Shown: positions 16,209 through 43,799 of the stretch, one piece after another
Layout of the letters: each line of letters starts with the position of its first letter
How positions within the stretch are numbered: the stretch's first letter is position 1
NCBI GenBank assembly: GCA_030695725.1
Contig: JAUYPN010000014.1
Span: 2,084-66,083, forward strand
Origin: Candidatus Omnitrophota bacterium
GTDB taxonomy: Bacteria > Omnitrophota > Gorgyraeia > 2-01-FULL-45-10
Length of the DNA: 64,000 bases
Direction of reading: 5' to 3'
Translations under genes and position numbers: made by a program
Notes under the pieces: model-generated
What the model was told of the DNA's origin: nothing
The model's input: the letters and a program-made list of their open reading frames with translations, nothing else
Database searches by the model: none

Positions 16209-16444
16209 TGGGAGAGCTCCTTATACAGGAAAAACGCAGGCAGAACTTAGTCATAGCCGTGATCTCGGCGTCCGTATTCATGTTCAGCGTCGATTACAGG
16301 AGCCAGTGAGCGAATAGATTCTACTGACCACTCACAACGCCCCTCGCACTGTCAAAGTCTCAATATTTCTCAAACTGAGCACCGCGCGCGCAGGCGGACC
16401 TGGCGGGGTTCGCCTGAAGGGTGGGTAAAAAAATAATTGAAAGG

Positions 16445-22876: not shown

Positions 22877-24982
22877 ATGAGCGATAATACCGTAAAAGTT
22901 CTGCTTATAGAGGATGACTCACTCGACGCCGACCTTATCCATGGTATGCTGAAGGATGCCGGGAAGGCCAGTTTTATCGTGGAGGTCCGCGATACCCTTG
23001 TAAAAGGACTGGAACGGCTGGCAAAAGGCGGTATAGACATAGTCCTTCTCGATCTCACTCTCCCCGACAGCATCGGCCTCGACACGTTCGGCAGGGTCCA
23101 TGCGCACGCTCCGCTGGTGCCGATAGTTGTGATCACAAGTTCCGCGGACGAGAATCAGGCGGCGACGGCTTTCCAGAAAGGCGCCCAGGAGTACCTCGTA
23201 AAAGAGCAGTTGAACGCGGAACTTGTGTCAAGATCGATACGCTATGCTATTGAGCGTAATAAGGTCAGGGTGGAACTGCATAGCGTGCAGGAGAGGTTGG
23301 AGAAGATCAATAGTTGCTTCCTGAAATTCGGCGAAGAACCGTATGAGAACATCCGTCATTTGACATCCGTCTTCGGCGAACTGCTCGGCGCGACGTGCGC
23401 GCTTTATAACTGCCTTGACAGGGACGGAATGCTCTGTTCTATGAGTCAGTGGCAGGCGCCCGCGGACTACAAGCTCAAAAATAGGCCCGAAGGGCGTATA
23501 TGTTATGATGTTATAAAAGAGGGCGACGGCGGGGCTTTTATAGTGCGCAACCTTCAGAACACCAAGTACGCCGAAACCGATCCGAATGTAAAACGTTATA
23601 AACTCGAGACATATATAGGGTATCCCATTAAATTGAATGGCGAGGTCATCGGCTCGCTCTGTGCCGTTTACCAGAAAGACTTTGTGCCGAGCGAGGACGA
23701 TATGAGGCTCGTCAGTGTTATAGCGGCCGGAGTGGAGGTTGAAGAGCGGCGCGCCTGCGCGGAGGATGAACTGCGCAGAGTTAACAGGGACCTTCTGGTC
23801 TCGAATAAGAGGCTGAACCAGCTCTCTTTACGCGATCTGCATACCGGATTATACAATCACAGGTATCTTGCCGAAATAGTCGACGCCGAATTCCACCGCT
23901 CCAGGAAACTCGGCGGCGCTATAGCCGTGATCATGCTTGACGTCGATTACTTCAAGTCGATCAATGATATTTATGGCCATCCGTTCGGAGATATGGTGCT
24001 GAAGCAGCTCGCCCAGCAGCTTAAGATGATGACGCGCCAATATGATGTCGTCATAAGATACGGCGGCGAGGAGTTCATAATAATGTCTCCCGGAACCGAC
24101 CGGGCCCATGCGCTGATGCTGGCGCAGAGAATACTTGAGGCAGTCAACCTGCACAGCTTCGGTAATACAGAGACATCCGTCAAATTAAAGGTAAGCCTCG
24201 CCGCGATCTCCTATCCGGAAGATAAGGTAACGTATGCGATGGATCTCGTAAAATTATCCGAGACTATTCTTGTCAAAGCCAAGGAGGATGGAGGCAGCAG
24301 GGTATATTCGTCGATGGATAAGGGCTCAAGGAGCAAGAGCGCCCAACAGCGCGACAAGAGCCCGAATATCGGCATATTACGGCACAGGCTGGATAAGCTT
24401 CACAAAGAGGCCAATGAAAGCCTCACGGAGTCGGTATTGGCTTTTGCGAAGACGATAGAGGTCAAGGACCATTACACCGGAGAGCATGTTGAGAGGACCG
24501 TTAAATATGCTACCGGTATAGCGAAAGCCCTTGACCTGTCGCCATCCGAAATAGAGATGGTGCGCCAGGCCGCGATGCTTCACGACCTCGGTAAGATAGG
24601 CATAAGCGAATCCATATTGAACAAAAAGGCCAAGCTCACGGATAAAGAGATCGAAGATATAAGGAAGCATCCGAAGATAGCGGCGGATATATTAAGGCCC
24701 ATACATGTGCTTAACGCCATTATACCTTTCATACTGTACCATCATGAAAGGTGGGATGGCAAAGGATACCCGACCAAGCTTAAGGGCGAGGATATACCCC
24801 TCGGCGCCCGGATAGTGGCCATAGCGGATGTCTATCAGGCCCTTGTATCCAAGCGCCCCTACCGCAAAGCCTTTTCAAAATTGAAGGCCCTTAAGATCAT
24901 AAAAGAGGCCTCCGGCACCCAATTCGACCCCCACATAGTAGACATCTTCCTCGATGTAATAAAGAAAGAAAAATCCGAGTAA
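22877..24982 (+). CDS. Response regulator with REC, GAF-like, GGDEF and HD-GYP domains
   Basis: VLLIEDDSLDA...VLLDLTLPD (REC), RYGGEEFIIM (GGDEF), HDLGKIG and HHERWDGKGYP (HD-GYP). Confidence 0.9.
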   Translation: MSDNTVKVLLIEDDSLDADLIHGMLKDAGKASFIVEVRDTLVKGLERLAKGGIDIVLLDLTLPDSIGLDTFGRVHAHAPLVPIVVITSSADENQAATAFQKGAQEYLVKEQLNAELVSRSIRYAIERNKVRVELHSVQERLEKINSCFLKFGEEPYENIRHLTSVFGELLGATCALYNCLDRDGMLCSMSQWQAPADYKLKNRPEGRICYDVIKEGDGGAFIVRNLQNTKYAETDPNVKRYKLETYIGYPIKLNGEVIGSLCAVYQKDFVPSEDDMRLVSVIAAGVEVEERRACAEDELRRVNRDLLVSNKRLNQLSLRDLHTGLYNHRYLAEIVDAEFHRSRKLGGAIAVIMLDVDYFKSINDIYGHPFGDMVLKQLAQQLKMMTRQYDVVIRYGGEEFIIMSPGTDRAHALMLAQRILEAVNLHSFGNTETSVKLKVSLAAISYPEDKVTYAMDLVKLSETILVKAKEDGGSRVYSSMDKGSRSKSAQQRDKSPNIGILRHRLDKLHKEANESLTESVLAFAKTIEVKDHYTGEHVERTVKYATGIAKALDLSPSEIEMVRQAAMLHDLGKIGISESILNKKAKLTDKEIEDIRKHPKIAADILRPIHVLNAIIPFILYHHERWDGKGYPTKLKGEDIPLGARIVAIADVYQALVSKRPYRKAFSKLKALKIIKEASGTQFDPHIVDIFLDVIKKEKSE

Positions 24983-25115: not shown

Positions 25116-25568
25116 ATGCCCGATCTTACGCTTTCCGATTTTGCAGAGAGAATAGAAGATGTCATGTCTACCGTAATGAAGGGCTTTGCCAAGATGCAGA
25201 CCAACGAACTCTTCAAAGGCGAGATCACCCTGCCCCAATTCTTTATCTTGAGTCATCTCGATAAGCACGGTGAATCGAAGATGAATGAATTGGCGAAATT
25301 TATGGATGTGACCACAGCCGCGGCCACCGGCATAGTCGATAGATTAGTGCGCTGCGGGTATGCGGCGCGCGTCTACGATCCCAAAGACAGGCGCGTTATC
25401 AATATCAGGCTCACCCGGAAAGGCTCGAATCTTGTGAAAAGGATCGGACGCCAGAGAAGAGAGGTCACCTCGGAAGTATTCGGCAGGATATCCAAAGAAG
25501 AGCGCGAGAACTATCTGGCCATAATGCTCCATATACGCGATGTTCTGACGGAAGACAGAAAGAATTGA
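25116..25568 (+). CDS. MarR family transcriptional regulator
   Basis: LTLPQFFILSHLDKHGESKMNELAKFMDVTTAAATGIVDRLV...DRRVINIRLTRKG (winged helix). Confidence 0.85.
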   Translation: MPDLTLSDFAERIEDVMSTVMKGFAKMQTNELFKGEITLPQFFILSHLDKHGESKMNELAKFMDVTTAAATGIVDRLVRCGYAARVYDPKDRRVINIRLTRKGSNLVKRIGRQRREVTSEVFGRISKEERENYLAIMLHIRDVLTEDRKN

Positions 25569-25579
25569 AGAGAACGAAT

Positions 25580-27115
25580 ATGAACAGATTTATCGCATTT
25601 ATAATAGTGATACCGGCGGTAATATCAGGCGGCCTTCTAGGCGCCGAAGAGATAAGCTATTTTGACAAAGACGATTATATGGCATCCGCGCGGTACCCCG
25701 AAACCCTCGAACTTGCCATGGTCGACTGTATCGCGATGGCGCTTAAGAGCAATTCCGAGATCAGCATCAAGAGGATAACCCCTTACATAGAGGATAACAA
25801 TATACTTATACAGAAATCGCGGTTCGAGCCGCATTTTACATTCGACGGCTCTTTGAGTGATTCGGTGGAGCAGGATCCGTCCACCCTTTTGGGCGCCAAT
25901 ATATTAAAGACGGGGGAGGAGGCCTTCGATTTCGGATATAACCAGAAGTTCACGACAGGCGCCGATCTGGAACTCGATTTTTTTAATACAAGGACAAACT
26001 CCAATTCGCCCACATTCGTCCCAAATCCTGCGTATGAGTCCGAGGCCGAGATTACGATAACCCAGCCTCTCCTTAAGGGCGGGGGAATAGCGGTGAACAC
26101 GGCCGATTTCCGCATAGCGAAAAATAATAAATTGAAATCGGCTCAGGATTTCAAGACGGAGGTTATAAAGGTTTTGACCAATGTCAAAAAATCGTATTAT
26201 GATTTCCAATACAGCCGCGAGCAGTATATAGTGGCGCAAAAATCGCTAATGAGGGTAGAGGACCTGCACAGGATAAACAAGGAAAAGTACGCCAAGGGGC
26301 TGGCGAGCGACATAGATATCACCGAGTCGGAAGCCGAAGTCGCGCGCATTCGGCAGGCGCTTTATGAAGCGGAAGCCATAATGAAGCTTGCCGAAGACAG
26401 CCTCAAGCTGATCACGAACTTAGTCGATGACCCCGCCCTCTGGAATGCTCGCATAGTGCTTTTAGAAGGACTCGAGTACGAGAAGAGAGACGTGGACCTG
26501 CCCGGAGCCATAAAGACCGCCTTTATCTACAGGCCCGATTACGAGGCCGCCAAGATAGACCTCCGCAACAGGGATATCGCCATAGTGGTCACCGCCAACG
26601 GCATGCTTCCGACGATCAATTTACTGGCGAGTTTTGGTTTGAACGGCCTGGACGCCATATATGCCAAAGATCTCGCGAATGTAGGAGGAGGCAAATATAA
26701 TAACTGGACCGTAGGCTTCAACGTCGACGTGCCTTTGATAGGGGATGAGAACAGAGGAAAATATGAAAGATCGAAGTCCGAGAAAGAACAGGCTCTTCTG
26801 GCCTTTCAGAGGCTGGAGCAGAAGATAATACTCGATGTCAGGAACGTCGCGAGGAACATAGATATAAACTACAGAAAGCTTGAAGCAAGTTCGATAAGCA
26901 AAGAGTCCGAAGACAAGAATTACACCGCCCAGGAGCTGCGTTTTAAGGCGGGCCTCGTATCAACTCTCGATATCGTAATATACCAGGAGAGGCTGGCGCG
27001 AGCCGAAGTGAGCTATGTAAAAAGTATTATAGATTATAACGTTTCTCTGATAGAATTATCGAGGGCGCAGGGCACAATGCTTTTTGACGACAATATAACC
27101 TTGGAGGAGAGTTGA
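25580..27115 (+). CDS. TolC-like outer membrane efflux protein
   Basis: Signal sequence and two repeated OEP halves with coiled-coil segments. Sits in an operon with the MFP and RND genes. Confidence 0.8.
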   Translation: MNRFIAFIIVIPAVISGGLLGAEEISYFDKDDYMASARYPETLELAMVDCIAMALKSNSEISIKRITPYIEDNNILIQKSRFEPHFTFDGSLSDSVEQDPSTLLGANILKTGEEAFDFGYNQKFTTGADLELDFFNTRTNSNSPTFVPNPAYESEAEITITQPLLKGGGIAVNTADFRIAKNNKLKSAQDFKTEVIKVLTNVKKSYYDFQYSREQYIVAQKSLMRVEDLHRINKEKYAKGLASDIDITESEAEVARIRQALYEAEAIMKLAEDSLKLITNLVDDPALWNARIVLLEGLEYEKRDVDLPGAIKTAFIYRPDYEAAKIDLRNRDIAIVVTANGMLPTINLLASFGLNGLDAIYAKDLANVGGGKYNNWTVGFNVDVPLIGDENRGKYERSKSEKEQALLAFQRLEQKIILDVRNVARNIDINYRKLEASSISKESEDKNYTAQELRFKAGLVSTLDIVIYQERLARAEVSYVKSIIDYNVSLIELSRAQGTMLFDDNITLEES

Positions 27116-27121
27116 TTTAAA

Positions 27122-28000
27122 ATGAAAAGAGCATACACTTATTTATTAGCAGTATTTCTAACAGCAGCTTTCGTCACAGGCTGCGGGGAGAATAAAGAAA
27201 AGGGCAAATACAAAGAAGAGCCGATCCCCGTAAAGGTCATGAAGATCAAAGCGCAAGATCTCGATAAGGCCCTCGAGTACGTAGGCAATATCCAGGGAGA
27301 AGACGAGGCTCAGGTCTATCCCAAGGTGAGCGGAAAGATAATTGAGAAGGTAAAGAGAGAGGGAGATTTCGTATCGAAAGGGGATGTTATAGCGTATATC
27401 GACAGGGACGAGGTAGGTTTGAAGTTCGAGAAGGCTCCCGTCGAGAGCCCGTTGGTAGGTGTAGTCGGAAGAGTGTATGTTGATATAGGTTCGAGCGTGA
27501 ATACCGCTACTCCGGTGGCGTTGGTGGCCAATTTAGACAGGGCGGAGATACATCTCGACATCCCGGAAAAATATCTGCCGAATATCTCACTGGCTCAGGA
27601 CGCCGACATTACGGTGGACGCTTATCCCGGTGAGAAATTCTTAGGAAAAGTCACCATGATCAGCCCCATAGTGGACCTTCAGACGCGCGCCGCGCCCATA
27701 GAGATAAAGATAGAGAACGCCGATCACAGGCTTCAGTCCGGCATGTTCGCTAAAGTAAAATTGGTCATTGAGGAGCAGAAAAATCGGCCCGTCATACTGA
27801 AAGAGGCTATAATAGGAAGAGGCGCTAATACGTACGTATACATAGTGGACGGCAAGAGGGCGTTCCTGAAGAATGTGATATTGGGGATACGTCAGGGCCC
27901 TTACTACGGAGTTGAAAGCGGATTAAAGACAGGCGATAAAGTCGTCATAGTGGGGCAGCAGCGGCTGCGCGACGGGTGCCTTGTAGAACCGGAAGAGTGA
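27122..28000 (+). CDS. Efflux RND periplasmic adaptor (MFP/HlyD family) lipoprotein
   Basis: Lipobox LTAAFVTGC, a biotinyl-lipoyl-like segment (V.PKVSGKI..V..EGD.V.KGDVIA) and a beta-barrel region. Confidence 0.85.
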   Translation: MKRAYTYLLAVFLTAAFVTGCGENKEKGKYKEEPIPVKVMKIKAQDLDKALEYVGNIQGEDEAQVYPKVSGKIIEKVKREGDFVSKGDVIAYIDRDEVGLKFEKAPVESPLVGVVGRVYVDIGSSVNTATPVALVANLDRAEIHLDIPEKYLPNISLAQDADITVDAYPGEKFLGKVTMISPIVDLQTRAAPIEIKIENADHRLQSGMFAKVKLVIEEQKNRPVILKEAIIGRGANTYVYIVDGKRAFLKNVILGIRQGPYYGVESGLKTGDKVVIVGQQRLRDGCLVEPEE

Positions 28001-28004
28001 TTAC

Positions 28005-31000
28005 ATGAAGTTTCCTGAATTTGGCGTAAAGAAGCCCGTAACCAACCTGATGATATTTTCTTCCATAATCATCATCGCTTTCTACGGCATTTCAAAGCTC
28101 GGCGTCGACATGATGCCCGAAATAGAGCCGCCTTCGATAACGGTCGTCTCTTCCTATCCCGGCGCAAGCCCAGACGATGTTGAAGTGAAGGTGACCGAGC
28201 CCCTAGAAAACCAGCTTGCCACTACTCCGGGCGTGGAAAAGATCACATCGCGTTCATCCGAGAGTTCGTCCGTAGTAAGCCTCAAATTTAAATGGGGGAC
28301 CAATCTGGACGAAGCCTCGAACGATATCCGTGACCGTATAGAGCTGACGAAGCGTTATCTGCCGGATATACCCGATGAGATGGATAATCCATTCATATTT
28401 AAATTCAATACGGCCAACATTCCGATAATGTATATGGGGATAACCGCTGACCAGAGTTATCCTGAGCTTTATGACATCATAGATAAGAGGGTTGGGGATG
28501 CGCTGAAGCAGCTTGCCGGAGTCGGCACCGTTCAGCTTATAGGCGGTATGGAGCGCCAGATAAATGTCTGGATAGACAGAGAGCGTCTCGAGGGCTACGG
28601 TTTTTCGATCATTGATATACAGAATACGCTGAAGCAGGAGAATATAACTCAGCCTTTAGGCAGCATAAAGAGCGGGCTCACAGATTATATGTTGAGGCTT
28701 CCGGGTGAATTCACGGAACCTGAAGAGATGAATCTCGTGATACTGGGAAAACGCGATAATAAGTTCGTGTATTTAAAGGATGTGGCCCGCGTCGAAGATA
28801 GTTTCAGAGAGATAACGACCATGATAAGGATGAACAGGAATCCCGCCATGATGATGATGATCCAGAAACAGTCCGGGACTAATACCGTCGAGGTTGCCCG
28901 GAATGTAAAGAAGAGATTGGCGGAAATCCAGAGGACTCTTCCTTCAGACATAAAGATATACACGATCTTCGATACGTCCAAAGATATCATAAACGCTCTC
29001 GATTCGCTTAAGACATCCTTATGGATCGGCATAATATTGGTCATATTAGTCGTCTGGTTCTTCTTAAGGCAATTCTACGGAAGCCTCATCATAGCGCTGA
29101 CGATACCATTCTCGCTTTTGATAGCTTTCATATACCTGTTTATGGCGGGAAAGACGATAAATATAATGGGTCTTTCGTCGCTGGCTATAGCTTGCGGCAT
29201 GGTAGTGGATAACGCTATAGTGGTGGTGGATAATATTTACAGGCATCTGGAAAGGGGGCAGAGGCCTCGTGAGGCGGCGATCTTCGGAACTCAGGAGATG
29301 TTCCTTTCGATAAGTGCATCTACGCTTACCACGATGGTCGTATTTTTACCAATGTTATTTGTTACGGGCGTGGTCGGTATCATGTTCGGTGAGCTCGCCA
29401 TGATAGTAACGGTTACGCTGCTCGCATCGCTCTTCACGGCGGCGACCTTCACTCCCATGCTCTGTGCCAGATGGCTGCGTGTCAGAGACAAGAGCATATC
29501 AGCTGAACTGTCATTGCGAGGAGGTGCGGAGCACCGACGAAGCAATCTCATAAACAAGTTCTACGACATATCAGAAGGTTGGTTCAGGTCATGGGAGGAT
29601 TGGTATGCACAGGCCCTCGCCTGGAGCCTGAAACACAAAAGAATAATAATACTTGGTTTTCTATCAGTATTTATATTGAGTTTATTCTCGATGCGTTTTA
29701 TAGGTAATGAGTTTATTCCCGAGGAGGATTCCGGAGATATACGTATTACGATAGAGTTGCCGGTGGGAACAAGGGTGGAGGAAACAGATAAAGTAGCCAA
29801 AAAGGTGGAGGACATCTTCGAGAGGACGGCTCCCGAATCAAAAGTTATGTATGTAAGAAGCGGTGAGTCTTCGCGCGGATTGGGCCGCATATTCGGCGGC
29901 GCCTCGGGAACGCATGTTGTAAGCGCGGGCGCAAAGTTGATCCCTAAGAATGAGAGAAAGCGCTCTGTGGCAGAAGTCGGCCAGGCCCTCAGAAAAGAGA
30001 TAAGAAAGATCCCCGGCGTACTAAAGGCTGATGTCTCGACCGGCAACCCGATAGGGAGGATGATAACCGGTATGGGCGGAAAAGCCATCCAGGTCGAAAT
30101 AATAGGCCATTCTTTTGCGGATACCAATGCTTTTGCCGAGAAATTGAAGACGATGATGGAGATTGTTCCGGGCGTCGTCGATGCCAGCATCTCCAGGGAT
30201 ATAAGTCTGCCCGAACTTAAGATAGAGGTTGACAGGGAGAAGGCCACGTCGCTCGGGCTTACAATGAATACGATAGCTTCGAGCGTCAAAACTTTTATAG
30301 AAGGCGCCACCGCCACCAAATACAGGGAGAAGGGCAAGACGTATGACATATATGTGAGGCTTCAGGAATCTTCCAGGACCAAGATAGAAGATATAGAGAG
30401 CCTTTCTATAGTGTCGCCTCTCACCGGAAAACAGATAAAGCTCGTGAATGTCGCGAAGGTTTATGAGATAAAAGGACCCATCCGCATTGAACGCATGAAC
30501 AGAGAAAGAGTCGTAAAGGTCGAGAGCAACGTTTACAAGCGATCGCCCGGTAAGGTGATAGAGGATATCAGGGCCGGTTTGAAGAAGCTTACGTTGCCGT
30601 CCGATACCATGGTCAATTTTGGCGGCGAAGCTGAGGAGCAGGGCAAGGCGTTCATGGACCTGACCCTTCTTTTGGTATTGGGCATCATACTTGTCTACAT
30701 GGTCATGGCGGCGCAATTTGAGTCGCTTATGGATCCATTGATAATCATGTTCTCCGTGCCGTTCACTTTCACCGGAGTATTGCTCGGATTTTTGATTACC
30801 CGCACGACGCTCAGCGTCATAACATTTTTAGGCATGGTGATGCTGATGGGTATAGTCGTGAATAACGCTATAGTCCTGATAAGTTACATAGCGATATTGC
30901 GCCAGAGAGGATATTCAATGATAGAGGCTGTAACTCAAGGCGGTAAGGATAGATTGAGGCCCGTTCTTATGACGACTATCACTACCCTGGCGGGGTTGCT

Positions 31001-31184
31001 GCCCATGGCGCTTTCGCGCGGTGAAGGTTCGGAGACATGGAAGCCGCTCGGCATAACTATGATAAGCGGACTTACGCTCTCCACTCTTATCACAATGATA
31101 TTCGTTCCTACGCTGTATGCGATAGTCGAGGCCAGAGTGAAAAAATCCGATATGTCATTCCCGCCCCCGCTTTCGCGGGGGTAA
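28005..31184 (+). CDS. RND efflux permease (AcrB/HAE1-like) with repeat-derived insert and C-terminus
   Basis: 1059 aa and a 12-TM layout, with GMVVDNAIVVVDNI and GIVVNNAIVLI motifs. Residues SLRGGAEHRRSNL and the final MSFPPPLSRG plus stop are encoded by repeat elements. Confidence 0.9.
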   Translation: MKFPEFGVKKPVTNLMIFSSIIIIAFYGISKLGVDMMPEIEPPSITVVSSYPGASPDDVEVKVTEPLENQLATTPGVEKITSRSSESSSVVSLKFKWGTNLDEASNDIRDRIELTKRYLPDIPDEMDNPFIFKFNTANIPIMYMGITADQSYPELYDIIDKRVGDALKQLAGVGTVQLIGGMERQINVWIDRERLEGYGFSIIDIQNTLKQENITQPLGSIKSGLTDYMLRLPGEFTEPEEMNLVILGKRDNKFVYLKDVARVEDSFREITTMIRMNRNPAMMMMIQKQSGTNTVEVARNVKKRLAEIQRTLPSDIKIYTIFDTSKDIINALDSLKTSLWIGIILVILVVWFFLRQFYGSLIIALTIPFSLLIAFIYLFMAGKTINIMGLSSLAIACGMVVDNAIVVVDNIYRHLERGQRPREAAIFGTQEMFLSISASTLTTMVVFLPMLFVTGVVGIMFGELAMIVTVTLLASLFTAATFTPMLCARWLRVRDKSISAELSLRGGAEHRRSNLINKFYDISEGWFRSWEDWYAQALAWSLKHKRIIILGFLSVFILSLFSMRFIGNEFIPEEDSGDIRITIELPVGTRVEETDKVAKKVEDIFERTAPESKVMYVRSGESSRGLGRIFGGASGTHVVSAGAKLIPKNERKRSVAEVGQALRKEIRKIPGVLKADVSTGNPIGRMITGMGGKAIQVEIIGHSFADTNAFAEKLKTMMEIVPGVVDASISRDISLPELKIEVDREKATSLGLTMNTIASSVKTFIEGATATKYREKGKTYDIYVRLQESSRTKIEDIESLSIVSPLTGKQIKLVNVAKVYEIKGPIRIERMNRERVVKVESNVYKRSPGKVIEDIRAGLKKLTLPSDTMVNFGGEAEEQGKAFMDLTLLLVLGIILVYMVMAAQFESLMDPLIIMFSVPFTFTGVLLGFLITRTTLSVITFLGMVMLMGIVVNNAIVLISYIAILRQRGYSMIEAVTQGGKDRLRPVLMTTITTLAGLLPMALSRGEGSETWKPLGITMISGLTLSTLITMIFVPTLYAIVEARVKKSDMSFPPPLSRG
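29511..29550. repeat. Family C repeat half-element inside the RND CDS
   Basis: GTCATTGCGAGG aggtgcggagcacc GACGAAGCAATCTC. It has the same termini as the copies at 36898 and 43939. Confidence 0.75.
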
Positions 31185-38681: not shown

Positions 38682-41600
38682 GTGTTAGATATGTTTGACG
38701 CTAGATCTAATACGCCAATTTCTGTGTTTGCATGGTCGCAAAATGTAAGGCGAATCAGGCTTACGTTGCGGCCATTTTTTATTTCATTACTCGCCTTAGT
38801 ATTCTTATTAAACTCAATAGGAGGTGACATGTTGATAGGTGAAGTTTGGGCTGCCAGATCGTCTTCAGGGCTTACTAGCGTCGGCCTTGACAGCGCGGGC
38901 AGCCCATCACCTCTTAAAGATTTGAGCGCGTCCACTTTTACGCTTCCGCGCGAACTGGGGACTATCCAGGAATCGAACGAGGTCCCGGGATCCGATAAGA
39001 CCGTGATACATATCCAGGACGCCCACTGTAACTACGCCGCGCAGACGGCCATCTCCGGAATATTGGATTATGTCACAACGGAATATGGCGTATCGGCTGT
39101 GAATTGCGAAGGCGGAGCCGAAAGTTATGACCTGTCGCCCTTTACCGACATACCCGAAAAGGGTATACGGAAAAAGACCGCCGACTTTTTCGTGAGGGAG
39201 GGCGTTGTGAGCGCGGCGGAATATTACGCCGTTAATAATCCCGAGAAGGTGAAACTGTGGGGGGTGGAGGACGCGGACCTTTACATAAAAGATCTTAAGA
39301 TATACAGGGATTCGCTCTCCCACAAAGATGAGATCGACAGATATCTGAAATCGATCGGTTACATGCTCGACAATTTAAAAAGGCACATATATCCGGAAGA
39401 TCTCTCGGAATTGGACAGTTACTATACAAGATATAAAGACGACAAAATAGGCTTTAAAGAGTACATCACCTATCTTCTCATGGCAGCCGGCAAGCGGCTC
39501 ATAGATGTAAAATCATATTCGAATATCTATCTTTTAAGTCAAACGCTCGATCAGGAGGATAAGATAAATTTTAAGAAGGCGAATAACGAAAAGGACGAGG
39601 TCGTCGATAAGCTTAAAAAGGTCCTTTCCAAAAACGAGCTCAAGGAGCTGATAACGAAGGTGGGAGAGCTGAAAATAGAGAGGATATCTCAAGCCGATTT
39701 CTACGCATATTTAGTAAAAAAAACCAAATCGATAAAACTGGACCTGAACGGTTATTCGGAACTGCAGAAATACATAATATACATTTCACTATACAGCGCC
39801 ATCGACAGGACGAAGATAATGCAGGAGATGGAATCGCTCGAGGATAAGATAAAAGATACTTTGTATGAGAACGATACGCAAAGGGAGCTCGGGATCCTCT
39901 CCAAGAACCTGGCGATCGAGAAGAACTTCTTCAACATCTCGCTGACCCGCGAAGATTATACATACTATAAAGAGCGCGCCTCTTCATTCGCCGTCTCAAA
40001 TTACGTAAAATTTATAGATGCCAGGGCGCCGCTTTATAAGATACGTTCCACGCTCGATAGCAATATAGGTATGTTGGATGTATACCGCGAGAAGATGGAG
40101 GGATTTTACGAATGTTCGCTCGAAAGGGACAAGGCTTTCATAAAGAATATCAAATTCACCGACCACGGCAGGCCGAGCTCCATCATAATAACCGGAGGTT
40201 TCCATACCCAGAACCTGCGCGAGCTATTCAATAAAGAGAAGGTCTCCTACGTATCGATAATGCCCAAGTTCACGAACCCTCCCGGCTACAAGAGCCCGTA
40301 CATGAAACGTCTTGCCGGCCAGAGGACAGCCCTCGAGAACGTCATCGACACTGCCATCCCTGCGGTTTTGAATTTACAGGTAGTCGAGATACTGTCAAGG
40401 CTCGGTCCTATGGTAGAGGGTAAGTTTAACATGGCACAGTTTAAGCTTGCTGTCATGATAGTTGCGGCATTGATGGAGGGGAAGGAGTTTGTAGTAAAAA
40501 TCTCCGTGAAAGGTTCGCCGAAAGACGAAGGGCAGGAAGAGGATAAAGTAGTTATATTCTCTAGAGGCGAAGGGGCGGATGCTGTTACGTCAGTGATGAA
40601 ATCGGGTGCTGAAGCTACCCCATATCTGGCAAATGTTGGCGCGATAATAACAGATTTTAGCTCCACATCCTTCGCGTTCTCTCTTCCATCGCAGGCCGGC
40701 GCAGTAAAAGTGGCTCTGACCTCGCCAACCGGTGGTGTAACTTCACACGCACAAACAGGTACGCGCGCCTCAGCGCCTGTCCGCCGAAGCCCATCCGGAC
40801 AAGACACGTTCACCGGCGAAGGCGGAAGCGCAGCGGCGGAGTTTAGAGATTGGGTGAGCAATATGCCGCAAGAGCTCATGGTATCCAAAATAAATTTTAT
40901 AAAGCATTTAGATAAACTCGTCTCCGGCCTGAGCGATCCTTATGGCCATATGCGCTCAGGAAGCGCCTTGGCGATCAAATCCCTCATAGATTCAGGGCTG
41001 ATCTCAAGGGAAGATATAGACGTAAAACCGCTTTTAGATAAACTCGTCTCCGGCCTGAGCGATTCGGATGGCTATATGCGTTTACAAAGCGCCTCCGCGA
41101 TCAAATCCCTCATAGATTCAGGGCTGATCTCAAGGGAAGATATAGCAAGGATCTATTATAAAGATTTTAACAAAGGATTCCAGAGAATATACGATGAGCC
41201 GTTGGAGCCAAGATTCTTCTATTACTATATGCGGCTTCTTAGCCTATTAAACAAAAAGACAGATGCGGCATATCGTATAATAGACTACCTTGATGACGGC
41301 CTGCTTGAGTTATCAAGATTTTCTTCGGAAGATTCTATATCTGAATTCTTCTTTGATAAACTGTCGGGCCTTATAAGGGATAATATTTCTCCTGACAGGG
41401 CCGCGGCCATATTGACAGAAGCTATCTTGGATTATCTTACCGATCGTATTGATGGTTCAGGCGAGGAAAACCACGCCGCTTTTAGCTCTGCGCTAGGAAG
41501 GCTCATCGTTATGTCAAGAAAGACCGGATTTACAGTAGCTCCGGATAAGATCAGGGATGCCATAAGGTTGTTTAACATAGGCTTTATGGATGGAGGCAAC

Positions 41601-43799
41601 AGCCCCACGAATGCCTCTCTTATAGCGGAAGAAATGGTGCTGAGTTCCCCCGCGCTTAATCTTAATAACCCTCCCTTAGCGCCTCCGGAGTTTAAGCCAA
41701 CTAAGGTATCCGCCTTAAAAGAAGCGGCATTTCCGGATATAAACGAATTGATCAAGAAATGCGAATTCTACGCCATTATGGGCAGGACCGTTATATACGA
41801 GAAGAAAGGCGGCGGGTTTATAGCGCTGAAGTTACTGAAGCATCAGGAGATACTCCTGCCGAACGGCGCAATCCACAGAGAAGACGAAGATCCCGGCAAG
41901 CTTATTTTAGAAAGCGAATTCTTCGATTACATGAATGCCTTAAAAGACTCCGGCGCGAACATAAGAGGATATTACCCCTTATCGTGCCCTATAAGCGGAC
42001 AAAGGGTTGTAAGGATAAATAAAGACGCCCTGGGCGCGGCGCTGAAGGGTTATATACACGAAATATCAAAACAGTCCTCAAAGCCAGACCAGAAGTTTGA
42101 AGCGTCATTGCAGGACAACCGTTACGTTGTGATGGCATACACAATAGATGATCCCGGCTATATAACATATCTACACCAGGCATCGGACGAGGCCATAGAT
42201 GAGGCATCCTTGAGAAACATCCACGACCTATTTACTCTGGCAGGATACGGCACCATACATCCGGACATCATAGAGCTGTTCCATAATCTCATACAGATCG
42301 GCAGGGGAGACAGGGGAAGATATCTGCTTATGGTTGATATTATACGTCCCATGAGGACAAGGACCGGCGCGGGCAGGCTGCATGCGTGGGAGAACGCGGT
42401 TCAATATCCTAATTACCGCCTTTCATCACCGGGCGATTTCGCGGAGATGTGCGGCTTAGATACATTGGTTAGTTTAGAAAGTCCAAATTCAATCTATATG
42501 CGCGATAACCTTCAAAGATTCCATGAAAATGACAGGCGTAAATTTCTCTCGGTCCATTTTATGAGTAATTATCTCCTTGGATGGGTACTTGATGAAGGTA
42601 AGCGTTGTAAGAGGCTTGGTGAACTAAAATGGAACGATAAACCATCAATGGAAAAACTCGCGGACCGTATAAGAAGGGTGTATCAGGAAGCGTATTTCGC
42701 GTACACCGGAAAAGAAGACGCGGATATCAAAGATCTCGTAGACTGGCGGATGTTCGCAAGGCAGATGGCTTTTTTCATGACAGACGCGTATGTTAAACCT
42801 TTAACAAACCGCAGCATACCGGAAGGCATATTCCCTAAAGATACTGGAATAGCCTATCCCTATAACATAACCTCATCCCGCGGATGGACAAAAGATGGTT
42901 GGAAGTCTGACGGGGAAAACTCCGATCTCGGTCCCGTGAACGGCCCGATCCCTCTGCAGGAGATGGTGAAGGCGAATTATCTCTACACCGCTTTTATGAT
43001 GCTTGACGGACCCGCGCCTTCCCGCCGCGCTTCAGCGAGCGGAGCGGCGGAAGAAAAAATAGTATCGCAATCTCCCAATTACGGAGATGCGAACCTGAGC
43101 ATGCAGGCTATTAATGGATCTCTGAGGCGCGGTGCATGGATGCTCGATATTGCTCCGGCTTTGTCGGAAGATGGAATGCAACCCTATCCGGACAGCAGAA
43201 GATATGATGAACAGATGCTTGATAAGACAGGTCACAATATTCGTACTGAGAGATATCTGGCGAAAGGTAAATGGATAGAGGAATTAAAAGAAAAGGTAGC
43301 GAGGCATATGGATGAGTTCATTAAAGAGGTTGCGCTGGCGTCATCTGCAAGAATGGTAATACGCCTTACGACCGATGATAAGGGTACGGAAAAAACCGAT
43401 ATTGAAAATCTGATTAAAGAATATCTTAAGAAAACATATACGGAAGATAAGGCGGATCAAATATTTAATAAGCATGTTAAGTTTGTACCTGTGAGCTTCG
43501 CAGGGGTGACCAATACCAATGCGCCTATCGATCTATATGTAGATATTGGTATGATGGAGATAGATCGTTACTTAAATGACGACTACCCGGGAGAAATCCT
43601 GCCAGCGGAGCTTAAGGATAATTTTGTCACGCTGCTAAGATTATCTATAACAAACTTCGATGCCTTTAAGACGGATGATGTAAAAAGTATATTGGATAAG
43701 ATATTCAAAATGGTTGTTACTTTAGAGATCAGGCCTATAAATTGGAGTACGGTGGACCAGTGGAGGAAAGCTAATCAGGCATTGTTGCAATCCGTTTAA
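38682..43799 (+). CDS. 1705-aa membrane-anchored protein of unknown function (Tiki/ChaN/TraB-like region, HEAT-like repeats, possible atypical kinase-like region)
   Basis: Uninterrupted ORF with AGAGAAGGA 6 nt before the GTG. TM segment FFISLLALVFLLNSIGG. VIHIQDAHCNYAAQ...NCEGG and IIITGGFH. Two 42-aa repeats LDKLVSGLSD..G.MR..SA.AIKSLIDSGLISREDI. IHPDIIELFHN...LLMVDII. Confidence 0.8.
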   Translation: MLDMFDARSNTPISVFAWSQNVRRIRLTLRPFFISLLALVFLLNSIGGDMLIGEVWAARSSSGLTSVGLDSAGSPSPLKDLSASTFTLPRELGTIQESNEVPGSDKTVIHIQDAHCNYAAQTAISGILDYVTTEYGVSAVNCEGGAESYDLSPFTDIPEKGIRKKTADFFVREGVVSAAEYYAVNNPEKVKLWGVEDADLYIKDLKIYRDSLSHKDEIDRYLKSIGYMLDNLKRHIYPEDLSELDSYYTRYKDDKIGFKEYITYLLMAAGKRLIDVKSYSNIYLLSQTLDQEDKINFKKANNEKDEVVDKLKKVLSKNELKELITKVGELKIERISQADFYAYLVKKTKSIKLDLNGYSELQKYIIYISLYSAIDRTKIMQEMESLEDKIKDTLYENDTQRELGILSKNLAIEKNFFNISLTREDYTYYKERASSFAVSNYVKFIDARAPLYKIRSTLDSNIGMLDVYREKMEGFYECSLERDKAFIKNIKFTDHGRPSSIIITGGFHTQNLRELFNKEKVSYVSIMPKFTNPPGYKSPYMKRLAGQRTALENVIDTAIPAVLNLQVVEILSRLGPMVEGKFNMAQFKLAVMIVAALMEGKEFVVKISVKGSPKDEGQEEDKVVIFSRGEGADAVTSVMKSGAEATPYLANVGAIITDFSSTSFAFSLPSQAGAVKVALTSPTGGVTSHAQTGTRASAPVRRSPSGQDTFTGEGGSAAAEFRDWVSNMPQELMVSKINFIKHLDKLVSGLSDPYGHMRSGSALAIKSLIDSGLISREDIDVKPLLDKLVSGLSDSDGYMRLQSASAIKSLIDSGLISREDIARIYYKDFNKGFQRIYDEPLEPRFFYYYMRLLSLLNKKTDAAYRIIDYLDDGLLELSRFSSEDSISEFFFDKLSGLIRDNISPDRAAAILTEAILDYLTDRIDGSGEENHAAFSSALGRLIVMSRKTGFTVAPDKIRDAIRLFNIGFMDGGNSPTNASLIAEEMVLSSPALNLNNPPLAPPEFKPTKVSALKEAAFPDINELIKKCEFYAIMGRTVIYEKKGGGFIALKLLKHQEILLPNGAIHREDEDPGKLILESEFFDYMNALKDSGANIRGYYPLSCPISGQRVVRINKDALGAALKGYIHEISKQSSKPDQKFEASLQDNRYVVMAYTIDDPGYITYLHQASDEAIDEASLRNIHDLFTLAGYGTIHPDIIELFHNLIQIGRGDRGRYLLMVDIIRPMRTRTGAGRLHAWENAVQYPNYRLSSPGDFAEMCGLDTLVSLESPNSIYMRDNLQRFHENDRRKFLSVHFMSNYLLGWVLDEGKRCKRLGELKWNDKPSMEKLADRIRRVYQEAYFAYTGKEDADIKDLVDWRMFARQMAFFMTDAYVKPLTNRSIPEGIFPKDTGIAYPYNITSSRGWTKDGWKSDGENSDLGPVNGPIPLQEMVKANYLYTAFMMLDGPAPSRRASASGAAEEKIVSQSPNYGDANLSMQAINGSLRRGAWMLDIAPALSEDGMQPYPDSRRYDEQMLDKTGHNIRTERYLAKGKWIEELKEKVARHMDEFIKEVALASSARMVIRLTTDDKGTEKTDIENLIKEYLKKTYTEDKADQIFNKHVKFVPVSFAGVTNTNAPIDLYVDIGMMEIDRYLNDDYPGEILPAELKDNFVTLLRLSITNFDAFKTDDVKSILDKIFKMVVTLEIRPINWSTVDQWRKANQALLQSV
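40907..41158 (+). repeat. Tandem duplication, 2 x 126 bp, inside the giant ORF
   Basis: Copies start at about 40907 and 41033. The flanks of each unit are identical (tttagataaactcgtctccggcctgagcgat..., ...gcgatcaaatccctcatagattcagggctgatctcaagggaagatatag), with substitutions confined to a ~35-nt centre. Confidence 0.9.

What the first reader, a model, noticed from the sequence alone, without database searches (positions are those of the whole stretch)
38682..43799. 1705-aa membrane-anchored orphan protein with a Tiki/ChaN/TraB-like region and a possible atypical kinase-like region
Seen in the sequence: a single 5.1 kb ORF with a good RBS and an N-terminal TM helix (FFISLLALVFLLNSIGG). At residues ~105-145, VIHIQDAHCNYAAQTAISGILDYV...GVSAVNCEGG is laid out like the ChaN/TraB/Tiki pattern (GExH.N..H...L..L...l.lE). 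About 390 residues later, IIITGGFHTQNL resembles the second conserved G-x-x-H of that superfamily. A long helical/coiled insert lies between them. At residues ~1030-1260: GGGFIALKLLK, LESEFFDYMNAL, VVMAYTIDDPGYITYLH, IHPDIIELFHN and LLMVDII. This ordering recalls a protein-kinase-like fold (beta3 Lys, alphaC Glu, hinge, HxD...N catalytic loop, metal-binding Asp) but with non-canonical spacing. Two HEAT-like repeats lie between these regions. Inference: this is a large envelope-tethered multidomain enzyme of unknown role, sitting between ptsN and an Rrf2 regulon. All domain assignments here come from pattern recognition only and are low confidence.
Basis: inference. Interest (0 to 1): 0.75.

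Follow-up and report, generated by a model that had tools for sequence, protein, structure and literature searches.

The report
Exported carrier protein with SidJ-like glutamylase
This 1702-residue protein of an uncultured Omnitrophota bacterium belongs to a large, undescribed, phylum-specific family of exported proteins that pair a Tiki/TraB-like hydrolase head with interchangeable enzyme cassettes, and here the cassette is a close structural cousin of SidJ, the Legionella enzyme that silences other proteins by attaching glutamate to them.

Summary
The ORF is real, with its likely start at ATG 38691 (1702 aa). It is not an orphan. Every SidJ residue needed for adenylation and glutamate ligation has a counterpart: R1032, K1047, E1076, H1198, R1205, Y1211, R1229, N1241, D1249. 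No calmodulin IQ motif is present.

The N-terminal region is a conserved ~520-aa module found at 358 loci in GTDB genomes; the best 80 loci all come from Omnitrophota-type MAGs, several per genome. D110-x-H112, E140, R479 and H505 are invariant in 123/123 sequences. A profile-profile match to TraB/GumN scores 28.1, above all 120 shuffles (z~5.7). Foldseek gives only weak hits (Bcr135, ChaN), so the Tiki/TraB assignment is probable, not proven.

The "TM anchor" looks like a ~50-aa extended Sec signal peptide with a conserved AWA|A site. Family members share the head and a C-terminal tail but carry different enzymes between them. Syntenic orthologues lack any cargo. Here a 746-aa HEAT + SidJ-like cassette is inserted.

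Most likely this is an exported Tiki-like hydrolase carrying an ATP-dependent protein glutamylase. Target and site of action are unknown.

The parts
38691..43799 (+). Whole gene (1702 aa + stop). The start is taken as ATG 38691, not the mechanical GTG 38682.
   Evidence: ORF list and translation. AGGA lies 10 nt upstream. The N-terminus 'M-x-DARSN' is conserved in homologues. The sequence is 100% identical to the MAG Candidatus Omnitrophota protein Q8R14_00820, which NCBI starts at M47.
38691..38840 (+). Extended Sec-type signal peptide (aa 1-50): conserved MxDARSN start, Arg-rich n-region, hydrophobic core aa ~28-45, and a V-W-A|A site (the family consensus is AWA|A).
   Evidence: Hydropathy scan. 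Family alignment of N-termini. AF2 helix at 27-44. Cleavage itself is inferred; no SignalP was available.
38946..39275 (+). N-terminal half of the Tiki/TraB-like alpha/beta core (aa 86-195), with invariant D110-x-H112, N114, Q118, E140-G141, R160, E177 and E193.
   Evidence: AF2 secondary structure: b104-110, a115-132, b136-139, b188-192. Invariance in 123 sequences. hhalign to TraB/GumN.
39276..40148 (+). ~290-aa all-helical bundle inserted into the core (aa 196-486); R479-D480 sit in its last helix.
   Evidence: AF2 predicts 13 helices, mostly with pLDDT >90. Foldseek gives only non-significant coiled-coil and ClyA/AhlC-type hits.
40149..40370 (+). C-terminal half of the Tiki/TraB-like core (aa 487-560), with invariant T501-G-G-F-H505.
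   Evidence: AF2: b496-502, a503-515, b519-525. hhalign aligns it in register with TraB 'vGAlH...NL..L'. Invariance.
40371..40778 (+). Long helix, a small beta subdomain and the start of a Ser/Thr/Gly/Ala-rich linker (aa 561-696). This is the end of the scaffold shared with cargo-less orthologues.
   Evidence: AF2. Composition. Alignment with P0002.
40779..43016 (+). Inserted cargo cassette (aa ~697-1442), absent from the syntenic ~950-aa orthologues.
   Evidence: BLASTP against P0002 and other ~950-aa homologues joins query aa ~696 directly to aa ~1443. Synteny of those orthologues. A 14-nt imperfect direct repeat sits at 40827-40840 and 43038-43051.
40905..41156 (+). Two 42-aa HEAT-like repeats (aa 739-822), produced by a recent tandem duplication.
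   Evidence: TRF: 40907-41145, period 126, 91% match. 31/42 residues identical. Pfam Cnd1 (E 0.0014) and HEAT (E 0.013) are sub-threshold here but above threshold in relative P0126. The same repeats precede the SidJ-like domain in many other proteins.
41538..43010 (+). SidJ-type pseudokinase (protein glutamylase-like) domain, aa 950-1440. Key residues with SidJ equivalents: R1032 (R352), K1047 (K367), E1076 (E381), H1198 (H492), R1205 (R500), Y1211 (Y506), R1229 (R522), N1241 (N534), R1243 (R536), D1249 (D542), E1252 (D545).
   Evidence: Residue roles come from PMC6858067 and bioRxiv 10.1101/2021.04.13.439722.
43083..43796 (+). C module (aa ~1465-1702): a Rossmann-like alpha/beta domain with no identifiable family and no invariant residues.
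   Evidence: AF2 pLDDT 83.6, pTM 0.79. Foldseek PDB gives only generic alpha/beta hits with TM<=0.31. The module is shared with ~25 family members.
43668..43796 (+). Family-wide C-terminal tail (...LEIRPINWSTVDQWRKANQALLQSV-COOH).
   Evidence: The tail sits at the extreme C-terminus of most full-length members, including 2000-2900-aa ones with other cargo. A tail HMM also hits a few non-family ORFs.

Best explanation
The gene encodes an exported modular protein of an Omnitrophota bacterium. It is built on a phylum-specific scaffold with four parts: (i) a ~50-aa extended Sec signal peptide; (ii) a ~520-aa head whose alpha/beta core carries the Asp/His-Glu-Arg-His catalytic signature of the Tiki/TraB/GumN (TIKI) hydrolase superfamily, split by a 290-aa helical bundle; (iii) a flexible linker; and (iv) a Rossmann-like C module ending in a conserved tail.

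In paralogues, the linker holds different enzyme cassettes. In this genome, a 746-aa cassette (HEAT-like repeats plus a SidJ-type pseudokinase) has been inserted into a positional orthologue that otherwise has no cargo.

The SidJ-like domain keeps all residues that SidJ uses to adenylate a substrate carboxylate in the kinase-like cleft and to ligate free glutamate in the 'migrated' pocket. It most likely works as an ATP-dependent protein glutamylase (amino-acid ligase). It would be activated or targeted by something other than calmodulin, plausibly through its HEAT repeats. The invariant head is most likely an active hydrolase (protease or esterase).

Shown: the domain identities, the residue conservation, the mosaic architecture and the insertion. 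Inferred: export, enzymatic activity, and that the ATP-dependent cargo acts inside another cell (host or prey) rather than in the producer's ATP-free periplasm.
For: - SidJ homology: (E=2e-75 over SidJ 332-752).
- Catalytic residues map one-to-one. H1198, N1241 and D1249 are invariant, and R1032 and K1047 are conserved wherever that region is present, in 33 relatives.
- Mutational importance of K367, H492, D542 and N534, and dispensability of D545, in SidJ (PMC6858067). R522 binds the donor Glu.
- No IQ motif is present. This matches the published statement that non-Legionella SidJ homologues lack the IQ motif and SidE.
- Head: confident AF2 model; invariant D110, H112, E140, R479 and H505 in 123/123 sequences; H-to-E spacing of 28 as in Bcr135 and RRSP; hhalign to TraB/GumN scores 28.1 against a shuffle maximum of 22.5; weak Foldseek hits to Bcr135 (2rad) and ChaN (2g5g).
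- Scaffold and variable cargo.
- 358 loci in GTDB species genomes, with several paralogues per genome.
- Syntenic cargo-less orthologues.
- Signal peptide with a conserved AxA site.
- The TraB/GumN relatives used as reference also carry signal peptides.
- Many other SidJ-like proteins carry N-terminal signal peptides.
- Omnitrophota are described as host-dependent or predatory, with mosaic multi-enzyme proteins of similar domain content.
Against: - No experimental data exist for any family member.
- An ATP-dependent ligase in an exported protein has no obvious ATP supply unless it reaches another cell. No secretion or translocation machinery is linked to the gene: neighbours are housekeeping genes in both orthologous contexts.
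- The closest relatives of the cassette in Thermodesulfobacteriota MAGs have no signal peptide and look cytoplasmic.
- The TIKI assignment of the head fails Pfam thresholds and Foldseek significance. hhalign does not align the first His motif.
- The score against NCBIfam NF033874 (46.9 bits) is far below its 300-bit cutoff.
- Signal-peptide cleavage is judged by eye only.
Confidence: 0.55

Rival explanations
1. The protein is a secreted inter-cellular effector or carrier. The Tiki-like head (possibly together with its helical bundle and the C-terminal tail) serves for delivery or autoprocessing, as the conserved regions of MARTX or polymorphic toxins do. The SidJ-like cassette is a payload that glutamylates and inactivates a protein inside a host or prey cell. 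This is a stronger version of the best explanation, in which the scaffold is a delivery device rather than an enzyme in its own right.
For: - A conserved N module and C tail bracket highly diverse ATP- or cofactor-dependent enzymes: HATPase, ABC1, PPDK_N, radical SAM, metallophosphatase, patatin and M48/M50 peptidases.
- The family is multi-copy within genomes.
- The signal peptide.
- SidJ itself is a translocated effector.
- TIKI domains occur in the MARTX effector RRSP.
- Omnitrophota have a predatory or episymbiotic lifestyle and conserved T2SS-like loci.
Against: - The commonest close orthologues have no cargo at all (~950 aa), so the scaffold must have a function of its own.
- The invariant catalytic-type residues argue for an enzyme, not a mere carrier.
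- There is no linked secretion system, immunity gene or processing site.
- The helical-bundle hits to pore-forming toxins are not significant.
Confidence: 0.25
2. The protein is an envelope-resident housekeeping enzyme. The Tiki/TraB-like head acts in the periplasm or on the cell surface, for example in peptide or ester hydrolysis as proposed for PrgY/TraB/GumN-type proteins. The SidJ-like domain would then be a catalytically silent pseudokinase used as a binding or scaffolding module, or it would act on the protein itself.
For: - TraB/GumN relatives are typically exported proteins with signal peptides.
- The gene sits in a conserved housekeeping neighbourhood next to OmpA/LysM and PtsN.
- There is no ATP in the periplasm (established knowledge).
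- SidJ shows auto-AMPylation.
Against: - All residues required for SidJ catalysis are conserved, including the donor-glutamate Arg and the migrated pocket. That would be unexpected for a dead scaffold.
- Other paralogues also carry ATP-dependent enzymes.
Confidence: 0.15
3. The protein is cytoplasmic and tethered to the membrane. The N-terminal hydrophobic segment is an uncleaved anchor with the bulk of the protein in the cytoplasm, so the protein is a membrane-tethered multi-enzyme in the manner proposed for inner-membrane-anchored Omnitrophota giant proteins. The SidJ-like domain would then regulate an endogenous protein by glutamylation.
For: - ATP-dependent cargo is found throughout the family.
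- Standalone HEAT + SidJ-like proteins without signal peptides exist in other phyla.
- Giant Omnitrophota proteins with similar domains are described as inner-membrane-anchored.
Against: - Five Arg residues precede the hydrophobic core and a conserved AWA motif follows it. This is the signature of an N-in orientation and signal-peptidase cleavage, which puts the rest outside.
- TIKI-type domains of the TraB/GumN kind are usually extracytoplasmic.
Confidence: 0.12

Closest known systems
Legionella pneumophila SidJ / SdjA (calmodulin-dependent pseudokinase glutamylases; PDB 6K4K, 6PLM, 7MIR)
   Same: The kinase-like domain is homologous over its whole length (profile E=2e-75, SidJ 332-752). The canonical-cleft residues (R352, K367, E381, N534, D542) and the migrated-pocket residues (H492, R500, Y506, R522) are all matched.
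   Different: There is no IQ/calmodulin-binding helix. Nothing outside SidJ's kinase-like domain (residues 332-752) is matched, and the domain is preceded by HEAT-like repeats instead. It is embedded as a cassette inside a Sec-exported scaffold rather than being a T4SS effector. D545 is Glu. The organism is an environmental Omnitrophota bacterium, and no SidE substrate is expected.
NCBIfam NF033874 'SidJ-related pseudokinase' and the diverse SidJ homologues noted by Osinski et al. 2021
   Same: The region aa 1012-1253 matches the model at E 1.8e-12. This fits the published statement that SidJ homologues in diverse organisms keep the active-site residues but lack the IQ motif and the SidE-binding regions.
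   Different: The score of 46.9 bits is far below the 300-bit curated cutoff, so the protein is not a member of that equivalog. It belongs to a distinct HEAT-associated subfamily of 351 representative clusters.
TIKI superfamily: Tiki, TraB/PrgY/GumN (PF01963), erythromycin esterases (Bcr135/EreB), ChaN, and RRSP of MARTX toxins
   Same: Predicted parallel beta-alpha-beta core. A [D/E]-x-H motif is followed 28 residues later by Glu. A conserved Arg lies ~26 residues before a G-x-x-H motif. All of these residues are invariant. The profile-profile match to TraB/GumN is above all shuffles. Like many TraB/GumN proteins, this one is exported.
   Different: There is no Pfam hit. A 290-aa helical bundle is inserted in the core. 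The first acidic residue is Asp, and the first motif reads H-I-Q-D-A-H rather than G-x-x-H. Foldseek similarity is not significant. The head is fused to variable enzyme cassettes.
MARTX toxins and polymorphic toxin systems (conserved delivery regions plus variable effector domains)
   Same: Conserved N-terminal and C-terminal parts bracket interchangeable enzymatic modules, and there are several paralogues per genome.
   Different: There are no repeats-in-toxin regions, no cysteine protease domain, no linked T1SS/T6SS/CDI genes and no immunity genes. Cargo-less members are common. The conserved head looks like an enzyme itself.
Omnitrophota giant multi-enzyme proteins ('archaeovorins' and related; West-Roberts et al. 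2023, Nielsen & Lui 2026)
   Same: Same phylum and the same repertoire of fused domains (HEAT, HATPase_c, PPDK_N, radical SAM, TPR). Signal peptides or TM segments are frequent.
   Different: The proteins here are much smaller (1-3 kaa). They are defined by a specific conserved head and tail that I did not find in the passages of those papers that I read or term-searched. No SidJ-like domain is reported there: 'SidJ' does not occur in the 2023 preprint, and no paper in the held library mentions both SidJ and Omnitroph*.

Membership tests
SidJ-type pseudokinase glutamylases | Protein-kinase-like fold with a beta3 Lys / alphaC Glu pair and a Gly-loop Arg | tested here: met
   The profile matches SidJ 332-752 at E=2e-75 and weakly matches FGFR N-lobes. 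R1032=R352, K1047=K367, E1076=E381. R and K are conserved in 26 and 25 of the 26 relatives that cover the region.
SidJ-type pseudokinase glutamylases | Metal-binding Asn and Asp of the kinase cleft (N534, D542; D545 is dispensable) | tested here: met
   N1241 and D1249 are invariant in 33/33 relatives. Position 545 is Glu here and in 17/33 relatives. The D545A mutation has little effect in SidJ.
SidJ-type pseudokinase glutamylases | Catalytic-loop insertion forming the 'migrated' nucleotide pocket (H492, R500, Y506) and the donor-Glu-binding R522 | tested here: met
   H1198 (33/33), R1205, Y1211 and R1229 align without gaps to SidJ.
SidJ-type pseudokinase glutamylases | C-terminal IQ helix and calmodulin dependence (SidJ/SdjA proper) | tested here: not met
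   No IQxxxR-type motif occurs anywhere in the protein. The domain is followed by the family C module instead.
SidJ-type pseudokinase glutamylases | ATP-dependent glutamylation of a protein substrate | not testable with these tools
   This needs biochemistry. No candidate substrate emerged from the gene neighbourhoods.
NCBIfam NF033874 SidJ_rel_pseudo (equivalog) | Score at or above the curated cutoff (300 bits) | tested here: not met
   46.9 bits, and the match covers only model positions 120-328 of 507.
TIKI superfamily (Tiki/TraB/GumN/ChaN/Ere/RRSP) | Catalytic 2His/2Glu-type signature plus a conserved Arg, at the C-terminal ends of core strands | tested here: met
   D110-x-H112, E140, R479 and H505 are invariant in 123/123 sequences. 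They are positioned after b104-110, after b136-139, in the helix 461-486 and after b496-502. The spacings match RRSP and Bcr135. The first acidic residue is Asp, not Glu.
TIKI superfamily (Tiki/TraB/GumN/ChaN/Ere/RRSP) | Significant sequence-profile similarity to a bona fide member family | tested here: inconclusive
   hhalign against TraB/GumN: score 28.1, P=0.0034, HH probability 9%. None of 120 shuffles reaches this score (maximum 22.5). The E, R and GxxH motifs are in register but the first His motif is not aligned. Pfam PF01963, PF04187 and PF05139 are not hit by any of 40 members at E<=10.
TIKI superfamily (Tiki/TraB/GumN/ChaN/Ere/RRSP) | Central parallel beta-sheet alpha/beta fold superposable on solved members | tested here: inconclusive
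   Foldseek of the whole 656-aa model gives Bcr135 2rad at E 1.2-2.0 and ChaN 2g5g at E 2.7, but no hit with E<=0.001. The search is dominated by the helical insert. The excised core could not be searched.
HEAT/ARM repeat proteins | Pfam HEAT-type repeat models above threshold | tested here: inconclusive
   The query gives Cnd1 at 19.2 bits (cutoff 26.4) and HEAT at 16.1 bits (cutoff 23.5). The homologous region of P0126 passes Cnd1 and RTP1_C1.
Sec-exported proteins with a cleavable signal peptide | Basic n-region, hydrophobic h-region and an AxA signal-peptidase site | tested here: met
   Five Arg residues lie before the core. The hydrophobic core covers aa 28-45. V-W-A|A is present here and AWA|A is the family consensus. 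This was judged by inspection only, the c-region is unusually long, and cleavage is not proven.
Polymorphic toxin / MARTX-like modular effectors | Conserved delivery regions flanking variable effector domains, with a dedicated secretion system and (for polymorphic toxins) immunity genes | tested here: inconclusive
   Variable cargo between a conserved head and tail is shown. No secretion or immunity genes are adjacent in the 81 loci examined.

The most novel reading that the evidence does not exclude
Omnitrophota possess a phylum-wide, previously undescribed class of exported 'cassette carriers'. In this reading, a Tiki-like protease head and a C-terminal sorting or docking tail deliver or process swappable enzyme payloads into host or prey cells. 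This locus would capture a recent acquisition of a calmodulin-independent SidJ-type glutamylase payload. That would make protein glutamylation by kinase-fold enzymes a weapon of predatory or episymbiotic nanobacteria, not only of Legionella.
Probability: 0.2. Interest if true: 0.85.

Novelty: new variant of a known kind. Interest (0 to 1): 0.6.

Why it matters
SidJ is the only kinase-fold protein glutamylase with a known target, and how its many environmental relatives are activated and what they modify is an open question. This protein offers a calmodulin-independent, HEAT-associated version with every catalytic residue intact, so it can be tested directly in vitro.

Separately, the head-plus-tail scaffold defines a large Omnitrophota family: 358 loci in species-representative genomes, several per genome. 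It has no Pfam model and appears to be a new, insertion-bearing branch of the Tiki/TraB hydrolase superfamily, fused to interchangeable enzymes. That gives a tractable 1-3 kaa entry point into the puzzling mosaic multi-enzyme proteins of this uncultured, host-dependent phylum. The pair of a cargo-less orthologue and a cargo-bearing one also gives a natural example of cassette insertion.

Tried and rejected
- Pfam and NCBIfam on the full protein gave only the SidJ-related hit; the head and C module had none.
- A Pfam scan of 40 family members at E<=10 found no TraB, ChaN or Ere model. It returned only spurious helical-region hits such as DUF1722 and HU-CCDC81.
- PADLOC and PHROGs found nothing.
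- An hmmsearch of the family profile against PDB sequences gave only low-complexity or coiled-coil noise.
- hhalign of the head against the single E. coli YbaP sequence, and against a low-diversity YbaP alignment (all >=67% identical), was not informative: P was 0.01-0.05 and the register was inconsistent. Only after I added eight plasmid-borne TraB/GumN sequences of 24-48% identity did the score rise above the controls.
- Foldseek of the head against PDB and BFVD gave no significant hit. The ClyA/AhlC/SMC-type hits reflect the long helices and were not taken as evidence of pore formation.
- Foldseek of the C module gave generic Rossmann-like hits only (Csm6 CARF, HGPRT, flavodoxin-like). I rejected any specific assignment.
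- Gene-neighbourhood analysis of 81 loci for a conserved partner, secretion system or immunity gene found only orthologous housekeeping synteny: helicase-OmpA/LysM-PtsN ... Rrf2-Fer4-HCP in one group, and FabG-FabF-ACAD-EtfBA in another. Neighbourhoods of standalone SidJ-like genes showed no shared partner.
- I found no second copy of the head in the window.
- Base composition showed no clear foreign signature for the cassette.
- The promoter and terminator scan was at chance level.


Full report
**Observation**

The window has one long ORF at 38682..43799 on the + strand. The mechanical start is GTG 38682. An ATG at 38691 lies 10 nt after an AGGA, and the N-termini of homologues begin 'M-x-DARSN' at exactly this Met.

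The protein is 100% identical to a hypothetical protein of a Candidatus Omnitrophota MAG. NCBI starts that protein at M47, which cuts off the hydrophobic N-terminus.

The neighbours are OmpA/LysM and a PTS-EIIA2 (PtsN-like) gene upstream, and Rrf2, a ferredoxin, a hybrid-cluster protein and PFOR downstream.

**The kinase-like region is a SidJ-type pseudokinase**

- NCBIfam gives one hit: 'SidJ-related pseudokinase', E 1.8e-12 at aa 1012-1253, far below the curated cutoff.
- phmmer against PDB finds only Legionella SidJ, at E~1e-13.
- An exhaustive HMMER search of aa 901-1440 finds 351 representative clusters (61 at E<=1e-30). Many of these lie inside proteins of 1000-5500 aa.
- A profile of 33 of these relatives matches SidJ residues 332-752, the complete kinase-like domain, at E=2e-75. 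It also weakly matches FGFR kinase N-lobes.

Reading the alignments, the residue equivalences are:

| This protein | SidJ |
|---|---|
| R1032 | R352 |
| K1047 | K367 |
| E1076 | E381 |
| H1198 | H492 |
| R1205 | R500 |
| Y1211 | Y506 |
| R1229 | R522 |
| N1241 | N534 |
| R1243 | R536 |
| D1249 | D542 |
| E1252 | D545 |

In SidJ, the K367A, H492A and D542A mutations abolish glutamylation and N534A impairs it. D545A has little effect (PMC6858067). R522 binds the donor glutamate (bioRxiv 10.1101/2021.04.13.439722).

H1198, N1241 and D1249 are invariant in the 33 relatives, and the Lys and Arg of the N-lobe are conserved wherever that region is present.

The proposed metal-binding Asp in LLMVDII was not; the true one is D1249.

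No IQ motif exists. This agrees with the published remark that SidJ homologues outside Legionella lack the IQ motif and the SidE-binding regions.

**The cassette**

Upstream of the SidJ-like domain lie two 42-aa HEAT-like repeats. They are a recent 126-bp tandem duplication. Pfam HEAT-type models are sub-threshold here but above threshold in relative P0126.

The same HEAT region precedes the SidJ-like domain in many other proteins. These include standalone ~800-1100-aa proteins whose closest named members are hypothetical proteins of Thermodesulfobacteriota/Deltaproteobacteria MAGs. HEAT + helical linker + SidJ-like domain therefore forms a unit.

Some SidJ-like proteins have classical signal peptides and others have none. 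Two standalone genes show no shared neighbour that could suggest a substrate.

**The scaffold family**

A search with the whole protein returned 170 homologues; every one that carries a source name comes from an Omnitrophota/Omnitrophica MAG. Each covers only 28-47% of the query. BLAST mapping shows three things:
- All homologues share aa ~30-600 at 36-73% identity.
- About 25 also share aa ~1440-1702.
- Most full-length members, including 2000-2900-aa ones, end in the same ~40-aa tail (...IRPxDWKSxDEWKKAQxAxLQSV-COOH).

Between head and tail the longer members carry very different Pfam domains: metallophosphatase, TPR, HATPase_c, ABC1, M48 and M50 peptidases, patatin, PPDK_N/PEP-utilisers, GT2, radical SAM and others.

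A scan of GTDB species genomes found 358 loci. The best 80 are all from Omnitrophota-type MAGs, and at least 18 genomes contribute two to four loci each.

The closest homologues (~950 aa) are positional orthologues. L002 and L005-L008 share the upstream helicase, OmpA/LysM and PtsN genes at 72-94% identity. L004-L006 share the downstream Rrf2/Fer4/HCP genes. In these orthologues the head is joined directly to the C module. P0002 aligns with query aa 27-696 and 1443-1702 at 72-73% identity.

The 746 residues between those points (window ~40779-43016) are thus a lineage-specific insertion of the HEAT + SidJ cassette into the linker. None of the 80 related loci contains a SidJ-like sequence. A 14-nt imperfect direct repeat lies at both junctions. 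By count this is at chance level, but its position is suggestive.

**What the head is**

No Pfam, NCBIfam, PADLOC, PHROG or PDB sequence match exists.

AlphaFold2 with a 40-sequence alignment gives a confident model (pLDDT 81, pTM 0.70). It has an alpha/beta core (b104-110, a115-132, b136-139, b188-192 ... b496-502, a503-515, b519-525) interrupted by a 290-aa helical bundle (aa 196-486).

In 123 family sequences, including members only 22-26% identical, the following are invariant: D110, H112, N114, Q118, E140, G141, R479, G502, G503 and H505. H112, E140 and H505 sit immediately after beta-strands, and R479 lies in the helix preceding the last motif.

This is the pattern that defines the TIKI superfamily: 2His/2Glu plus a conserved Arg, on a parallel beta-sheet core (PMC6254334). 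The H112-to-E140 spacing of 28 equals H85-E113 of Bcr135 and H3902-E3930 of RRSP. The R479-to-H505 spacing of 26 compares with 29 in RRSP.

Foldseek against PDB gave no significant match, because the helical insert dominates the search. Even so, Bcr135 (2rad, E 1.2-2.0) and ChaN (2g5g, E 2.7) appear among the 127 weak hits. Both are named representatives of this small superfamily.

I then built a TraB/GumN alignment from E. coli YbaP and eight plasmid-borne homologues of 24-48% identity.
- hhalign of the head core against it scores 28.1 (P=0.0034; HH probability only 9%). E140 aligns with TraB's 'LE', R479-D480 with 'RN', and TGGFH505 plus the following helix with 'vGAlH..NL..L'.
- Controls: the reversed alignment scores 13.9; 120 shuffled alignments have a mean of ~14, sd ~2.4 and a maximum of 22.5; unrelated profiles score 13-19.5.
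- The first His motif is not part of the local alignment.

I conclude that the head is probably (about 0.75-0.8) a divergent, insertion-bearing member of the TIKI/TraB superfamily with an intact catalytic set, but this is not proven.

**N-terminus, C module and tail**

The only strongly hydrophobic segment is aa ~21-52; a marginal window at 586-604 lies in a predicted soluble helix. Across the family the N-terminus reads M-x-DARSN, then a basic stretch, then RPF-K, then 18-20 hydrophobic residues, then AWA|A, followed by a Ser/Gly/Pro-rich linker. That is an extended Sec signal peptide with a canonical AxA site (V-W-A|A here), although the c-region is long and cleavage is unverified.

The C module folds confidently (pLDDT 83.6) as a Rossmann-like alpha/beta domain. 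It has no specific structural relative (best Foldseek E 0.008, TM<=0.31) and no invariant residues. It is more likely a binding or structural module than an enzyme.

The terminal tail is less confidently placed in the model. It also occurs at the C-terminus of a few ORFs outside the family.

**Mechanism**

Shown:
- The domain identities and the conservation of both catalytic sets.
- The head/cargo/tail architecture and the cassette insertion.

Inferred:
- The protein is exported by Sec.
- The head is an active hydrolase.
- The SidJ-like domain adenylates a carboxylate on a target protein and ligates glutamate (or another amino acid), as SidJ does, with the HEAT repeats replacing calmodulin or the NTD in activation or target recruitment.

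An exported ATP-dependent ligase, like the ATP- or cofactor-dependent cargo of the paralogues, makes most sense if it acts inside another cell. Omnitrophota are described as host-dependent or predatory, with mosaic multi-enzyme proteins of similar domain content. I therefore favour an inter-cellular role, but with low confidence. The reasons for caution are that no secretion or immunity genes are linked, that cargo-less orthologues are the rule at this locus, and that the nearest cassette relatives look cytoplasmic.

**Comparison and novelty**

The SidJ-like domain is a new, calmodulin-independent, HEAT-associated variant of a known enzyme family. It does not meet the NCBIfam equivalog cutoff.

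The scaffold family has no model in Pfam or NCBIfam. I found no description of it in the parts of the Omnitrophota papers I read or term-searched, and no paper in the held library mentions both SidJ and Omnitroph*.

Overall this is a new variant of known kinds: a SidJ-type glutamylase and a TIKI-type hydrolase in an undescribed modular, paralogous, exported architecture. Interest 0.6.

Noticed in passing
L066:2619-5243 and L039:70-2829 (related loci); window 43668-43796: The ~40-aa C-terminal tail of the family also ends ORFs that do not cluster with the head-bearing family ORFs (no BLASTP link at E<=1e-8). One example is an 875-aa protein with its own signal peptide. The tail may be a wider Omnitrophota sorting or docking element.
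   Followed up: partly
window 38691-38840: The family signal peptide is unusually long (~50 aa) and has a conserved 'M-x-DARSN' start, reminiscent of the extended signal peptides of very large exported proteins. The NCBI annotation of this gene starts at M47 and so omits it.
   Followed up: partly
window 40827-40840 and 43038-43051: A 14-nt imperfect direct repeat (13/14; it encodes S-A-A-A-E in one copy and S-G-A-A-E-E in the other) sits at both junctions of the inserted cassette. It may be microhomology used in the insertion, or it may be chance.
   Followed up: partly
window 9663-11321, 14550-16208, 16421-17713; L082:13155-13344: There are two GH3-family (adenylating amido-synthetase) genes and a radical SAM gene in the window. 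A GH3 gene and a PP-binding gene also lie near a standalone SidJ-like gene in another phylum. The possible link was not examined.
   Followed up: no
L014, L019, L020, L023, L029, L036, L037, L041, L057 (upstream 6 kb): A second orthologous group of family paralogues (long, cargo-bearing members) always sits downstream of a FabG - FabF - acyl-CoA dehydrogenase - EtfB - EtfA(ferredoxin-fused) gene block.
   Followed up: partly
window 40907-41145: A 126-bp tandem duplication (91% identical) creates the two HEAT-like repeats. This implies recent repeat expansion inside the cassette.
   Followed up: yes
AF2 model of window 38691-40658 (head): The best BFVD structural hit is an uncharacterised Hokovirus HKV1 protein (A0A1V0SF06; E 7.8e-3, probability 0.77, 574 aligned columns). 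The PDB hits to ClyA/AhlC/XaxA-type alpha-pore-forming toxins are all non-significant and reflect the helical bundle.
   Followed up: no
window 22877-24982 and 25565-31184: The window also holds a response regulator with GAF-GGDEF-HD-GYP domains and a complete RND efflux set (OEP/TolC-like, AcrB-like), which confirms a diderm envelope. ORF 47-1573 (508 aa) has no Pfam hit.
   Followed up: no
window 39900-42600: GC skew is lower (0.01-0.06) inside the gene than in the flanking genes (0.15-0.27), while GC content is unremarkable. This is no clear sign of foreign origin.
   Followed up: no
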